From: Carcharhinus longimanus
Taxonomy: Eukaryota
Length of the DNA: 64,000 bases
Assembly (NCBI GenBank): GCA_030264375.1
Contig: JASCQW010000162.1
Location: 60,200,445-60,264,444 of the forward strand
Direction: 5' to 3'
In this document: positions 6,001-12,000 of the stretch, in pieces
How the letters are laid out: every line of letters starts with the position of its first letter
Numbering within the stretch: the stretch's first letter is position 1
Position numbers: made by a program

Positions 6001-9000
6001 TCAGCTTACCGCAGAGTTGCAGGAAGGGAAGTGAACGGGACAGAACAGATAAAACTGTTACGCAGGGCAGGTGGCGAATATTCAGGATAGTCTGCACAGG
6101 GCTGTGATTGAAGCTGATAACAACAGTGATCTGAACAAGGAGTTGGAATATTAGGTAGAGAACTTCATCTTCTTTGTTTTGAATTACAGGGCCAGTGAGA
6201 TGAACCAAAATAGCTCTTTCGGAAACTGTACGTTCCTGTGTTTCTATGAAAAATGTAGCCTTGCCAGTTGATCGGGTGTGAAGCAGTAAGGTCAACTCAG
6301 TGCCAAAGAAGAAAGCTGAGTTTGTGTCATTTCAGGACAATAGTTTGTTCACAATTAGAATATTACGTTCAGAACCAAGCATCCCTGTAGAGAAAGAACA
6401 TTAAAACACAAAGACTGTTCAGCAAAAATTAACTAGGATAATGCCAGAGATGGGCAGCTTTAATTCAGGAGAAACTTGTGATACTGGGACTGTTTATATT
6501 GATTCACACAGGGCAAAGAGGAAATTTGACAGGGGTTTAAAGTTATGAAAAGTTTTGATAAGTGACAAAAGATCATTGATTTAAAATTGTCAGAAAGAGC
6601 ACAGAGAGAGGTGGAAGAAATTTTCTTTCACATTTTCTCCTTCGATCATGCCATTGAAAATGGTTGACAGTAACAACTGCAACTTTTAAGGAAAACCACA
6701 AAAATATTTGAAACATGGGAAGGCTATGGCTAGAGTGCCAGTAGGTTTAGTTTGGATTTGCTCTAGCAGAGCAGTGGAACAGAAGTGATTGGCTTAATGA
6801 TCTTGTGTGCTGTAAAGTCCGTTTATCTGGTTCAGCTTGAGGAGGTTGATAGAGCTGGACCTTATCTGAAGTGCTGTGAGAACAAACCAGGATAATTTTT
6901 CTTATATGGAGCTAAAGAAAATTAAGGTCTGTCCAAATCTTCATGTCAGACAGCACAGATATGGTGTCCATTGGTGGAGGAGGGGAAAATTGGATGTATG
7001 AAAACTGACCATATGCTTGCACATAATCTCTTCATAGGGATAGCATATAGAATTGCAGAATGACCTAGCAGGCAAAGAAACCATTAGCCTATCACATATG
7101 TGTCAAACCTTTAAAATTATCCAACTGACTCCAGTCTGCTATGGTTTAAAAACATCATTAATTTCTCAACACATTACCATCATCCTCTTGAGATTATGAA
7201 GAGCACGATAGAATTAAAAAAACTTTGATAAGAAACAATTTTTGTTGATATAATTGGTGTCACTGTCTTTGGGCTGGGTAGGGGGCAATCAGCCAAGATT
7301 GCCCCAATTACCCTGTAATTTGTTTTGCCTCCAATTATTTACTCAATTCTGTTACAAGTGATGGCTAAGTGAATCGAGGATAGAACAGTGGGCATGTTAT
7401 GGGATCTAATGGCATTGGAAGTTACAGATAGTTCTATGGCTTGGTAGGTATAGATGTGATCAGCGCAACTTGTGGGCCGAAGGGCCTGTTTGAGCTGTAG
7501 TGTTCTATGTTCTATGTGCTGGTTATGGTGTATTAGCCATACTAAATTCTCCCCCAGTGTACCTGAACAGGTGCTGGAGTGTGGCAACTCAGGGATTTTC
7601 ACAGTAACTTCATTGCAGTGTTAATGTAAGCCTATTTGTGACACCAATAAATAAACTAAGGAAAAAATATCCTTGCTAGGCACTAGGGTTTTAAAATCAA
7701 CACTTTTAGAGAGAAAAGCAGGATTCTCCTGAAGTTTTGGCCTTCCTCAATCAACACCACCAAATCTGATTCAGTAATGATTTTCTCTTTTGTTCTTTGT
7801 TGGACTTTATTGGGCGCACATTTGCTGTTGTGGTTGAATATGTAACAGTACTGACTATACTACAAACATCATTTATTGCCTGTGAGGCACCTTGCAATAA
7901 TGCAAAAAACACGAAAGGTGCAAAGTAAATTTCTTCGTTTGCCACAACTACCCAGAGTCATTGTCCTTTCTGAGACACACTGGATGGGCCACAATTAGAA
8001 GTGTCACAACACAAGAGGCCTGGGCCACAGTTACCCAGAGTCATTGTCCTTTGAGACACACTGGGCTAAATGGCCATCTCCTGTGTTGTAAATGACTCTT
8101 CACACAAAAAAACCCCAAAAATATTCAGAGTAATTTGTTGGATGTGGTGCATTTATGGACATCATCAAATGTAAAATCACCACTCTACTTGCGCCCCCCA
8201 AAACGGGCATGTTCTCTGGCAGTGGAGGCGGCTCACTATTGGTTGCTGGCAGGATCTTCCTGTCCCGTTGATATCTACAGCGTCACCCACCCTGCCACCA
8301 GGGAACCCCTCTGTGTGGGGAAGGGGGAGTAGTGGGGGGGTTCCCTTTGGCAGGACTGGAGGATCCCGCCATTAGGAGTAGAAATTTCTCTTGGGAGATG
8401 CCACAAAGTTTGGATTAGCCACCATTGCAGCCAGTGGAAATGAATATCAGGTATTGTGTAGAAAGGGAGATTGATTTCATACCACACATTTTGTGTTACC
8501 TCCTGAGATGTATCAAAGTCTTATGAATTATGTTAAGGTTTAATTGCAATCACATTTTTAAATAGGTCAAGGATACTTGTACACCAATAAATAGGGATAG
8601 AAGGGGCTGGCCCTTCAATTTGTCTTACCTTCTTCCAGATTTGTTAATTATGCTTAACGGAGTAGTTAAGTTAAAGTTTATTTGTTAGTGTCACAAATAA
8701 GCTTACATTAACACTGCAATGAAGTTTCTGTGAAAATCCTCTAATCGCCACACTCCAGGGCCTGTTCGAGTACACAGAGAGAATTTAGCATGGCCAAGGC
8801 ACCTAACTAGCACATCTTTCAGACCACGGGAGGAAACCGGGGCACCTGGAAGAAACCCACGCAGACACGGGAAGAATGTGCAGACTCCGCACAGACATTG
8901 ACCCAAGATAGGAATTGAACCCGGGTCCTTAGCGCCGTGAGGCAGCAGAGCTAACCACTGTTCCACTCTTCTAAGTACAAATGGGGATAGCTGGGACACT

Positions 9001-12000
9001 GGTTGTGTTGGAGTAGAACTGACTTTGAACTAAGTGAATAAACTCTTTTCCATAAAGAAAGCTATTGTCTAACTTTTAAACTGGTGCAGATCCAGTTAAC
9101 TAATTAATTTCTATCCGAGTTCTTATTCTAATCTTATCCTATCTATCCCGGATGACTTATCTCATTGATTCGATTCAGCTAGATTATCTAATTAATGAAA
9201 AGGTTCACCAGGAATGTAACAATGAGCAATACAGCTTGCATTGCAACTGGATACATAGGAGGTTCTTGCCTGTCTCCGGGCGAGTCACCTTGCTGGTGAT
9301 GAATGAAAATGAAAATAAATGGGACAAATGGCATACAGGAGGATGATCGTGCTCTACTTTAGCTGCGGACCTCCTGTCCTTTCTGCTCACAATTACCAAC
9401 CTACTTTTGACGCTTGATCATTTTATTCAGTTCTTGTTCTCAATTACAATGTCAAGTGCACTTACAGCTTCCAAATTTAAGGGGGCAAGCATGGACATCC
9501 ATAGGAAAGTCTTCCAGTTGCATGGGGCATTCAGCAGAAATGGTCAATCTGTAAAACAGAACATACAACCCCAGTAATCTTCCATCCGCTCCAGAGATTT
9601 CTCGCAGTTGCATGATGAAGGTGACGGATGATAACATAACTCGGATGAATCACTCATTAGCATTCAATCAGGATTCAACTTATTCCTGATGAGCTGACCC
9701 TGTGCGCGATGTAAACTAACGTGGTTAATGCAGTAATTTCATATTAATACGTTGTTGTACCAAAGTTTCAGTGGGTTTTCATATAAATTATATAAGCTGT
9801 GATAAATGATAAATTAGGTTTTTTACAATGTGTTAGAGGGAGCTGTGCGAAAATGAGAAGCAAACGCTTTAATTAACTGAAGCTCCCCTTTATCAGCATC
9901 AAATTTATTGGGTCACGTTCATTATGGCTCCTCAGATTAACCATTTCAGGTTCATTCAGAAGCAAAACCGATTTTGTTTTTTATGTTGACTTCTTTCTGC
10001 GGTGAATGAATGTGGCCCTTTATAAATGTATGATCAAGTTAGGTCGACAGAATAAATATGGATANNNNNNNNNNNNNNNNNNNNNNNNNNNNNNNNNNNN
10101 NNNNNNNNNNNNNNNNNNNNNNNNNNNNNNNNNNNNNNNNNNNNNNNNNNNNNNNNNNNNNNNNTATGGCTTGGTAGGTATAGATGTGATCAGCGCAACT
10201 TGTGGGCCGAAGGGCCTGTTTGTGCTGTAGTGTTCTATGTTGCAGGTGATTGACAGGCATTGGAAGAGGAAATTTTTAAGAAGATGAAGTGACTAAATAG
10301 GCACTGATCAGAATGTAACCAGGAACGAGTAGTGTCATGATAGTGGAACAAAGGACTGATCAGGAGCTTTGAAAGTAATAAAGACGAGATTTGCCAGATG
10401 TGCAGGATATTGATGACTCAAGGCTGAGAAGTTAACATATTTTGTAATGCATATATAAAACACTATGGGCTTTCCCACTGATTCCCACTGGCTTCCCTGG
10501 TTTCCATCCACCCTCCAGTATCTCATTCAAGAGATTTCTCAACATACATTGTTGGCCATTAAGTAGAGTACTAGCAGCCTATTCAGTGCATAGAGCATCG
10601 CAACTGAGCCTAGCTCTGTTTCCATCAAAGTCCACACGTGCACTTCCCAGCAGGAATCATGAGATAATCAGGATCATAAAACCTGGCTGATTTCCCCCTA
10701 CCCACCTCAAAGACACTGAGGCCAATTATATCAACCAAACATGTTTCTTATCCAAGTTTTTAACCAGTTGCACTTCTTATCACCATTAGAGGATGATGGC
10801 AATGCATTGAAAAATCAATTATTTTTATAAACCACAGGCTTTAACTGCAGTATATATGCGCTGGTGGATCTGTCATATTACAGAATTTCCACAACATGAT
10901 CAGAACTTGAAACAAAAAGGGAGGTCACGCAACCAGCCATCAAACCTGGGTAGTGCTAACTTTTGAACTGCAGCTATCTACTTTAATCTCAATTTGCTGC
11001 ACCTCATGCCAGTCCTTCCACATTCTTCCTTTTCAAATACTTAAGTCAATTTCAAAGGTGTAATCTATCATTGCTATGGCTCACTCCTAAAGAGGTAGGG
11101 ATAAAAATGCACAGAAGTTAATGTTACTTTCATAAAGATTCTTATTTAGTCCACTCATGGTTTGCTGTGTGTAGCTCTGGTCACCGTATATTAAGAAACA
11201 AGAATATGGGGGCTGTGAAGGATGTGGTTATCAGAAAAGGCTGGGGCTCTTTTCTTTAGAAAAAGGAAGGCTGAACAGTGAGTGATCTGATGGAGGTTTT
11301 TAAGTTTATCAAAAGATTTAATAAGTTGTTTACCTAAAGAATGTGTAACATACTACAATATAGAATAATTGAGGGGAATAGAATAGATGCATTTAAGGAG
11401 AAACACATGAAGGAGCAAGAAATAGAATATTTGACAGGACTACCTGAGACAGGGTGGAAGGAGGCTTATGTGGAGCATAAATGCAGATTTGAAGCTTTTG
11501 GGTAAATAGTCTCTGTGTTCTTTGGACATTATATGACTACAATTGAATTGTGGGAAAATGCTCATCATTGTAATGCAACAAATTACATTTTTATAGCGCC
11601 ATTAATATTGTAGACACATCCCAAACTAATTCGTAGAAGTGATTATCAGATCAAATTTGACATTGAGCTACATTAGGAGGTATTAGGACTAATGATCAAA
11701 AACTTGATATAAGAGGCAGATTTAACAGTATGATTGTCTTAATAGTTATTCTGGTTAACATTTTTACTTCCTAAATTGTGGTTGGAAGAGAGGTTGGGGG
11801 GAATATACAGTATTCCTGTTCTATGTCCTGTGTTTCCATGTGTAAAGTTTCTATGTCTAAAGGTGTGCACTGTGCCTAAGTTCTGCTTCCATCTTCTGTG
11901 CCTTCAGTTCTAAATGGAGTTTTCATTCCCCACAGGCTATTATAAAAGAAGGTCTTCTGATGAAACAGACAAGTTCATTTCAACGTTGGAAGAAAAGATA

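What the first reader, a model, noticed from the sequence alone, without database searches (positions are those of the whole stretch)
9000..10064. Orphan GABA-A receptor alpha (GABRA5-like) Cys-loop exon antisense in the presumed first DGKD intron
Seen: a stop-free 83-nt exon at 9548-9466 with a polypyrimidine/AG acceptor and GTAAGT donor, encoding the full Cys-loop, inside about 1 kb of repeat-free DNA. I found no other GABRA exon by eye in the window. Established: alpha subunits sit in GABR clusters (GABRB3-GABRA5-GABRG3), and human DGKD is not in such a cluster. Inference: the most likely cause is a misplaced contig; the alternatives are a DNA-level transposed gene fragment (it retains intron flanks, so it is not a retrocopy) or a true overlapping gene.
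Basis: partly seen in the sequence, partly recalled or inferred. Interest (0 to 1): 0.7.

Follow-up and report, generated by a model that had tools for sequence, protein, structure and literature searches.

The report
Lone GABA receptor exon, probably misassembled
A perfectly intact exon of a GABA-A receptor alpha subunit sits alone beside a lipid-kinase gene, but the repeat and gap around it suggest the assembly put it there, not the animal.

Summary
On the minus strand, 9548-9466 is an 83-nt open exon with an AG acceptor and a GTAAGT donor. It encodes the whole Cys-loop and is 26 of 27 residues identical to GABA-A alpha-5. It is the only Cys-loop-receptor piece in the window: 1 of 526 open frames of 46 aa or more matches Neur_chan_LBD, and none matches the membrane domain.

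The host gene is a delta-like type II diacylglycerol kinase. Its exons lie in order on the plus strand from 11936 onward. Its exon 1 is not in the window.

New evidence concerns the join. The exon lies 516 nt from a 100-N gap. The first 77 nt after that gap (10165-10241) repeat 7435-7511 at 76 of 77. This is the tail of a CR1-like repeat whose other copies in the window are at most about 78% alike. The 2553-nt block carrying the exon (7512-10064) therefore sits between two copies of one sequence.

I read the block as a wrongly threaded assembly branch, most likely native GABRA5 DNA (about 0.6). A real transposed gene fragment is second (about 0.3). An overlapping functional gene is unlikely. 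No reads or other shark genomes were available, so this is not proven.

The parts
9466..9548 (-). 83-nt GABA-A receptor alpha (alpha-5-like) Cys-loop exon. It begins with the third base of a codon and ends with the first base of a codon.
9549..9578 (-). Acceptor region: pyrimidine-rich tract ending in AG (9550-9549)
9460..9465 (-). Donor GTAAGT
8971..10064 (.). Unique DNA around the exon, with no match elsewhere in the window. It ends at the N run.
10065..10164 (.). 100-N run separating the exon's stretch from the piece that holds the kinase PH exon. It was not filled or looked up.
7435..7511 (+). Copy 1 of the 77-nt tail of a CR1-like repeat. This is the left edge of the block that carries the exon.
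10165..10241 (+). Copy 2 of the same 77 nt (76 of 77 identical), starting at the first base after the N run
7512..10064 (.). 2553-nt block between the two copies, the suspected foreign branch. It holds a SINE-like half (7514-7657), about 1 kb of other DNA, an inverted SINE-like copy (8660-8970), and then the unique DNA with the exon.
7411..7421 (+). 11-mer GGCATTGGAAG, repeated at 10256-10266. It may be a target-site duplication tying 1-7421 to 10256 onward.
   Evidence: an 11-mer or longer in 4 of 200 shuffles
10256..10266 (+). Second copy of the 11-mer
11936..12046 (+). Type II DGK exon, start of the PH domain (Pfam PH positions 1-36). This is the nearest host-gene exon.
18975..19055 (+). 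Next DGK exon, continuing the PH domain. It was read by eye; Pfam gave no match for its 27 aa.
54214..54339 (+). DGK C1-domain exon, 40 of 42 identical to the human DGK delta C1 domain (1r79)
58359..58521 (+). DGK catalytic-domain exon (DAGK_cat positions 1-37)
59746..59854 (+). DGK catalytic-domain exon with the GGDG motif (DAGK_cat positions 47-77)
60806..60945 (+). DGK catalytic-domain exon (DAGK_cat positions 83-118)

Best explanation
The exon is a genuine, intact Cys-loop exon of the animal's own alpha-5-type GABA-A receptor gene. Its position inside the kinase gene is most likely an assembly artefact.

The favoured form is this. The kinase intron truly runs from about 7511 straight into 10242. 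A near-identical copy of the same CR1-like repeat tail lies in the receptor gene's intron. The assembler crossed from one copy to the other, so 7512-10064 is a foreign branch stuck on the end of the left piece. The true continuation was kept as a separate piece that begins with the same 77 nt, and it was placed behind a nominal 100-N gap.

A weaker form is that the whole left piece (1-10064 and beyond) is receptor-locus DNA falsely joined at that gap.

Shown: the exon, its uniqueness in the window, the 76-of-77 duplicate starting at the first base after the gap, and the collinear kinase exons to the right. Inferred: that the duplicate reflects a wrong path, and that the block comes from the native GABRA5 locus.
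For: (1) The piece after the gap starts with 77 nt that duplicate 7435-7511 at 76 of 77, on the same strand. Identity ends abruptly at 7511/10241.

(2) These 77 nt are the tail of a CR1-like family with 8 copies in the window. The only other copy BLAST aligned to it is 78% identical, and the rest are visibly more diverged in the alignment. So this pair stands out.

(3) The one mismatch splits the 77 nt into 58 and 18 identical bases. A 58-nt identical run exceeds the 41-nt exact overlap seen at another gap.

(4) This assembly does leave overlapping ends unmerged. At the 459-N run, the 41 nt before it (22502-22542) equal the 41 nt after it (23002-23042) at 100%.

(5) An 11-mer at 7411 recurs at 10256, where a target-site duplication of a single repeat insertion would lie if 1-7511 continued into 10242 onward (an 11-mer or longer in 4 of 200 shuffles).

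(6) The SINE-like half at 7514-7657 starts exactly at the end of the repeat tail, yet its missing half is nowhere in 1-7434.

(7) The exon is undecayed: 26 of 27 identical to human alpha-5, open, with both splice sites intact. That is what the native exon would look like.

(8) No neighbouring receptor exon lies within 9.4 kb downstream or 54 kb upstream. A working gene here would therefore have to interleave with the kinase exons.

(9) To the right of 10165 the kinase exons are collinear across at least 8 N runs. Only the left join has no gene-order support.
Against: No reads, mate pairs or second assembly were available, so the wrong path is inferred, not seen. A 77-nt near-identical repeat is shorter than most sequencing reads and should normally be resolved correctly. 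How far the identity extends leftward in the second copy is hidden by the gap.

Two young copies of one repeat subfamily 2.7 kb apart, the second breaking the contig, would give the same picture in a correct assembly. The two tails differ in their number of terminal short units (two in copy 1, one and a bit in copy 2), as independent insertions would.

The 11-mer is weak evidence. I made three such comparisons, and a loose alignment suggests 7411-7421 may itself be repeat-derived. The N run may be a deliberate mask rather than a gap.
Confidence: 0.6

Rival explanations
1. The exon is a real DNA-level transposed or duplicated fragment of GABRA5: the exon plus its intron flanks and embedded SINEs, truly lying antisense in the kinase intron, fixed or in one haplotype only. 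It is a dead passenger. The CR1-like tail immediately upstream on the plus strand, and a second tail after the gap, would fit carriage by read-through of a LINE (3' transduction ending at a second tail). Repeat-mediated repair would fit too.
For: The exon and 9.4 kb of further DNA are one gap-free stretch. The block begins right after a LINE-type tail in the same orientation and is followed by another tail. The intron flanks exclude a retrocopy. Partial DNA-level duplication of a Cys-loop receptor gene has a precedent in CHRFAM7A (PMC8998457; abstract seen in the listing). The exon has no partners in 64 kb.
Against: A copy under no selection should decay, yet none is visible in 27 codons or in the splice sites, so it would have to be recent. 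A 77-nt duplication flanking an insertion is far longer than usual target-site duplications. From recall: CR1-type LINEs need their own 3' end for reverse transcription, which makes transduction unusual. The second repeat copy starting exactly at the first base after the gap is more easily explained by the assembly.
Confidence: 0.3
2. The exon belongs to a true, functional alpha-subunit gene that overlaps the kinase gene on the opposite strand. Its other exons lie outside the window or under N runs.
For: The exon is intact with good splice sites. Shark-size introns can exceed tens of kb (recalled). About 1.5 kb of the window is N.
Against: On the minus strand the receptor's 5' exons would lie at higher coordinates. 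None is found in 54 kb, so they would have to interleave with at least six kinase exons. Alpha subunits sit in conserved beta-alpha-gamma clusters in vertebrates (recalled). My searches found no paper placing one at DGKD.
Confidence: 0.03
3. The block is foreign DNA: contamination from another species, human included.
For: None specific. It is considered only because the exon is highly conserved.
Against: The exon peptide differs from human alpha-5 (V for A). The same gap-free stretch carries a SINE-like family and a CR1-like family that recur in the kinase part of the window. I therefore do not take this stretch for human.
Confidence: 0.02

Closest known systems
GABRA5 / GABA-A receptor alpha-subunit Cys-loop exon (the 83-nt exon of the ligand-binding domain)
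   Same: The 27 residues are 26 of 27 identical to alpha-5 and 25 of 27 to alpha-3. They carry the C-x13-C loop and match Neur_chan_LBD positions 121-146. The 83-nt length and codon phases fit the family's gene structure (recalled). The homologous exon of mouse Glra1 is given as 83 bp in PMC3484359 (passage read).
   Different: It stands alone. No other ligand-binding or membrane exon lies in 64 kb, and it is antisense beside a kinase gene instead of in a beta-alpha-gamma cluster.
CHRFAM7A, a partial DNA-level duplication of the Cys-loop receptor gene CHRNA7
   Same: A piece of a Cys-loop receptor gene, with its introns, copied to a new genomic context (PMC8998457; abstract seen in the listing).
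   Different: CHRFAM7A carries exons 5-10 and is fused to another gene and expressed. Here there is one exon, on the opposite strand to the host, with no evidence of expression and doubtful placement.
Exon carriage by LINE 3' transduction (L1 exon shuffling; recalled, not looked up)
   Same: A LINE-type 3' tail lies directly upstream of the block in the same orientation.
   Different: The tail is CR1-like, not L1-like. No poly(A) tail or clear target-site duplication bounds the block, and the far end is hidden by N.
Unmerged contig overlaps and chimeric joins at repeats in short-read scaffolds
   Same: The sequence right after a gap repeats earlier sequence at the 10065 gap (77 nt, 76 of 77) and at the 22543 gap (41 nt, 100%).
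   Different: At 22543 the duplicate abuts the gap. At 10065 it lies 2.55 kb inside the left piece, which is what leaves a dangling block.

Membership tests
Cys-loop receptors (Pfam Neur_chan_LBD) | Two cysteines 13 residues apart in the ligand-binding domain | tested here: met
   C at residues 7 and 21 of P0001
Cys-loop receptors (Pfam Neur_chan_LBD) | Profile match above the curated cut-off | tested here: met
   30.5 bits against a cut-off of 26, E 3.1e-07
GABA-A receptor alpha subunits | Closer to alpha subunits than to gamma or beta subunits or to glycine receptors | tested here: met
   The 31 best of the 60 PDB rows shown are alpha subunits (E 4e-13 to 3e-09). Gamma-2 starts at 4e-07 and glycine receptors at 9e-04.
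GABRA5 orthologue | Closer to alpha-5 than to every other alpha subunit | tested here: inconclusive
   26 of 27 identical against 25 of 27 for alpha-3. The sequence is too short, and no shark or other non-mammalian comparators were available.
Complete GABA-A subunit gene | The remaining ligand-binding exons and the four-helix membrane domain nearby on the same strand | tested here: not met
   Neur_chan_LBD matched 1 of 526 frames and Neur_chan_memb 0 of 526. Motif scans were negative. N runs and exons under 46 aa are not fully covered.
GABA-A / glycine receptor gene structure | An 83-nt Cys-loop exon with conserved phases | tested here: met
   83 nt, 1 + 27 codons + 1. The 83 bp for Glra1 exon 5 comes from PMC3484359. 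The GABRA exon size is recalled.
Processed retrocopy | Similarity runs across exon borders, with no introns | tested here: not met
   Similarity stops at the AG and at the GT
Type II diacylglycerol kinase (host gene) | PH, C1 and DAGK_cat domains in order on one strand | tested here: met
   Exons searched one at a time: PH 1-36, C1_1, and DAGK_cat 1-37, 47-77 and 83-118, in rising coordinates
DGKD specifically | Closer to delta than to eta or kappa | tested here: inconclusive
   The C1 exon is 40 of 42 identical to the human delta C1 domain 1r79, the only DGK hit. No eta or kappa sequences were available.
Location in DGKD intron 1 | Exon 1 upstream and exon 2 downstream on one continuous sequence | not testable with these tools
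   Exon 1 was not found in the window. The PH exon lies across a 100-N run.
Assembly artefact (chimeric or redundant join) | Sequence at the start of a piece duplicates sequence inside the neighbouring piece | tested here: met
   10165-10241 against 7435-7511, 76 of 77
Assembly artefact (chimeric or redundant join) | Reads fail to span the join | not testable with these tools
   No reads were available

The most novel reading that the evidence does not exclude
The block is real. A 2.5-kb or longer slice of the GABRA5 gene, with the intact Cys-loop exon and its intron flanks, was moved into the first intron of DGKD. It is bracketed by two near-identical CR1-like tails. It may have been carried by read-through of a CR1-type LINE from one tail to the next, and it may still be polymorphic in the sequenced animal. 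That would be exon shuffling caught early, by a LINE class thought unable to transduce flanking DNA.
Probability: 0.2. Interest if true: 0.45.

Novelty: not a real feature. Interest (0 to 1): 0.12.

Why it matters
If it is an artefact, the practical consequences are these. The native GABRA5 model in this assembly is likely to lack its Cys-loop exon. A gene predictor may report a spurious receptor fragment in DGKD. The 7435-7511 / 10165-10241 duplicate marks a join that should be broken. If the block were real, it would be a small but clean case of a receptor exon moved at the DNA level next to LINE tails. That bears on how exons travel in genomes dominated by CR1-type elements.

Tried and rejected
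(1) Translating long stretches with stops for Pfam was not accepted. I used stop-to-stop frames instead.

(2) Short recalled motifs for other GABRA exons gave only unrelated frames.

(3) I looked for kinase exon 1 in 1-12 kb by short motifs and by reading all frames of 45 aa or more. It was not found.

(4) Rfam on 6000-12305 gave 0 matches at E up to 0.1. ARAGORN on the whole window found 0 tRNA genes. So the tRNA-like head of the SINE-like family is not recognised by either.

(5) I looked for target-site duplications around the repeat plus the SINE half, and between the end of the left piece and the sequence after copy 2. There were only 7-mers, at chance level.

(6) Literature: 'GABRA5' with 'shark' gave 15 papers, of which the 10 listed were not relevant by title or abstract. 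'GABAA receptor, gene cluster, synteny, elephant shark' gave 1 paper, on another subject. 'GABRA5, GABRB3, GABRG3, whole genome duplication, vertebrate' gave the zebrafish alpha-subunit paper; the 12 of 16 passages I saw concern expression and accession numbers, and 'synten' occurs 0 times. 'DGKD' with 'GABRA' gave 7 papers, all gene lists by title or abstract. The search on shark assembly errors gave nothing specific. So these searches turned up no report of a GABRA gene or fragment at DGKD. Supplements were closed and not seen.

(7) Human contamination was considered and rejected (see rivals).

(8) Not done: no structure, complex or atlas job was run, because the family is already clear. The bacterial and archaeal genome scan was not used because it is irrelevant to a vertebrate locus. 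No vertebrate genome collection was on hand, so the block could not be compared with any other shark sequence.

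Full report
**What is there**

Read on the minus strand, 9548-9466 is an 83-nt stretch preceded by a pyrimidine-rich tract ending in AG and followed by GTAAGT. Its 27 whole codons give [27 protein letters not shown], with one spare base at each end. This peptide matches Pfam Neur_chan_LBD above the curated cut-off (30.5 bits against 26, E 3.1e-07, profile positions 121-146 of 216).

Among solved structures, the 31 best of the 60 rows shown are all GABA-A alpha subunits. 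The best is alpha-5 (26 of 27 identical, E 4.2e-13), then alpha-3 (25 of 27). Gamma-2 and glycine receptors score far lower. The two cysteines lie 13 residues apart. The surrounding open frame (9455-9649) is unrelated to the receptor before the AG and after the GT, so this is a genomic exon with intron flanks and not a retrocopy.

The 83-nt length and the codon phases fit what I recall of the family's gene structure. A paper gives 83 bp for the homologous exon 5 of mouse Glra1 (PMC3484359, passage read).

**Is it alone?**

I cut the window into all stop-to-stop frames of 46 aa or more: 271 on the minus strand and 255 on the plus strand. Each was scanned on its own against Pfam (alignments A1-A4; scans).

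- Neur_chan_LBD matched 1 of 526 frames, the known exon.
- Neur_chan_memb matched 0 of 526.
- tblastn with the exon peptide found only itself below E 0.01.
- Scans with a few short recalled motifs over all 2152 frames of 20 aa or more found nothing credible.

There are limits. Exons shorter than about 46 aa are covered only by the motif scans. About 1.5 kb of the window is N (12 runs); I did not fill or look these up.

**The host gene**

On the plus strand there are exons of a type II diacylglycerol kinase, which I searched one at a time:

| Exon | Pfam match |
|---|---|
| 11936-12046 | PH, positions 1-36 |
| 18975-19055 | none; PH continuation read by eye |
| 54214-54339 | C1_1 |
| 58359-58521 | DAGK_cat, positions 1-37 |
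| 59746-59854 | DAGK_cat, positions 47-77 |
| 60806-60945 | DAGK_cat, positions 83-118 |

The C1 exon is 40 of 42 identical to the human DGK delta C1 domain (1r79, the only hit). From recall, the first PH exon looks rather eta-like and the second rather delta-like, so 'delta-like' is probable but not settled. The exons lie in order across at least eight N runs, which supports the scaffold to the right of 10165.

No exon 1 is in the window, so 'first intron' remains presumed.

I do not take this window for human. The exon peptide and the kinase C1 exon both differ from the human proteins. The same gap-free stretch as the exon also carries repeat families that recur through the window. From recall, these look like cartilaginous-fish repeats.

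**The join**

The exon lies in a gap-free stretch, 1-10064, only 516 nt from a 100-N run (10065-10164). The nearest kinase exon is in the next piece (10165-12305). So the link between the receptor exon and the kinase gene crosses a gap.

Comparing 6001-10064 with the rest of the window, and each gap edge with the whole window, gave the main new result. The first 77 nt after the gap (10165-10241) repeat 7435-7511 on the same strand at 76 of 77. Identity then ends abruptly.

These 77 nt are the 3' tail of a CR1-like repeat with a short-unit tail. The window holds 8 copies. The only other copy that BLAST aligned to it is 78% identical, and the remainder look more diverged still.

Between the two copies lies a 2553-nt block (7512-10064):
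- a SINE-like half (7514-7657) that begins exactly where the repeat tail ends;
- about 1 kb of other DNA;
- an inverted copy of the same SINE-like family (8660-8970; 84% identical over 144 nt);
- 1.1 kb of unique DNA holding the exon.

The missing half of the first SINE-like copy is nowhere in 1-7434.

An 11-mer, GGCATTGGAAG, lies at 7411 and again at 10256. That is where a target-site duplication would sit if 1-7511 really continued into 10242. An 11-mer or longer appeared in 4 of 200 shuffles, and I made three such comparisons.

This assembly also leaves overlapping ends unmerged elsewhere. The 41 nt before the 459-N run equal the 41 nt after it at 100%. In all, 3 of 12 gaps show a match of 90% or better between a gap edge and another place in the window. 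The third (53790) is a tandem repeat.

**Reading**

The simplest account is that the assembler met two near-identical repeat tails, one in the kinase intron and one in the receptor gene's intron, and took the wrong exit. Block 7512-10064 would then be a foreign branch stuck on the left piece. The true continuation survived as a separate piece that begins with the same 77 nt and was placed behind a nominal gap.

This account explains several things:
- why the second copy starts at the first base after the gap;
- why there is a single mismatch after 58 identical bases;
- the 11-mer at both positions;
- the orphan SINE half;
- the undecayed state of the exon;
- the absence of any partner exon.

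A weaker form of the same idea is a false join of the whole left piece at the gap. I give the artefact reading about 0.6.

**What speaks against it**

- I had no reads and no other vertebrate genome.
- A 77-nt repeat is short enough for most reads to span.
- Two young copies of one subfamily 2.7 kb apart, the second breaking the contig, would look the same in a correct assembly.
- The two tails differ in their number of terminal units, as independent insertions would.
- The 11-mer may itself be repeat-derived.

So a real transposed fragment keeps about 0.3. It would have been moved at the DNA level, or carried by LINE read-through from one tail to the next, and might be present in one haplotype only. 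CHRFAM7A is a precedent for partial duplication of a Cys-loop receptor gene (PMC8998457; abstract seen in the listing).

A functional overlapping gene is unlikely (about 0.03). Its 5' exons would have to lie more than 54 kb away, interleaved with the kinase exons. None of my four literature searches on the point found a GABRA gene at DGKD. The paper read (PMC5922542; 12 of 16 matching passages seen) deals with expression and not with gene order. That alpha subunits sit in conserved clusters is stated here from recall.

**Verdict**

The exon is real and ordinary. Its odd address is probably not real. Interest is low unless read mapping shows that the block is truly in the kinase intron.

Left unchecked for lack of tools:
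- any comparison with other shark assemblies;
- read support for the join;
- expression of the exon;
- the name of the kinase paralogue.

The closed protein databases, the metagenome and viral collections, and paper supplements were not consulted.

Noticed in passing
window 22502-22542 and 23002-23042: The 41 nt before the 459-N run are 100% identical to the 41 nt after it, inside a SINE-like copy. This looks like an unmerged contig overlap with a spurious gap size.
   Followed up: partly
window 53736-53789 and 53896-53975: The edges of the 100-N run at 53790 are copies of a short tandem repeat with a period of about 25 nt, 92-97% identical. The gap probably sits inside a tandem array.
   Followed up: no
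window 7514-7657, 8660-8970, 13230-13400, 14289-14569, 22484-23160, 48019-48147, 55911-56212: A SINE-like family of about 300 nt with a tRNA-like end, 70-84% identical between copies. ARAGORN does not recognise any copy, nor does Rfam on 6000-12305. From recall it resembles cartilaginous-fish SINEs.
   Followed up: partly
window, 8 places (7474, 10204, 28611, 50976, 62480 on plus; 51779, 49238, 22375 on minus): Tails of a CR1-like repeat family sharing a GGGCCGAAGGGCCTG-type core followed by short TTCTATG-like units.
   Followed up: partly
window, positions not resolved by the scan: Five frames match the reverse transcriptase family RVT_1: 2 of 271 on the minus strand and 3 of 255 on the plus strand, best E 3.1e-13. 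By eye, one is 50033-50248 on the plus strand. These are LINE fragments in the kinase introns.
   Followed up: no
window 19056-54213: The rest of the kinase's PH domain and its first C1 domain were not found between the exons at 18975 and 54214, either by Pfam on frames of 46 aa or more or by motifs. They may be short exons or lie under N runs.
   Followed up: no
window 7139-7295 and 10684-10837: Another repeat family lies on both sides of the block in inverted orientation, 78% identical over 159 nt.
   Followed up: no
window 1-450: Long open frames rich in proline, serine and glycine on both strands and in several frames. This is probably low-complexity DNA. No Pfam match for the first frame on either strand (35-295 minus; 1-228 plus).
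   Followed up: no
window, positions not resolved: Marginal single Pfam matches among the scanned frames: ERCC3_RAD25_C (E 0.0018), CxC1 (0.0095), DUF2660 (0.0052) and PilX_N (0.0037). With 526 frames scanned, these are most likely noise.
   Followed up: no
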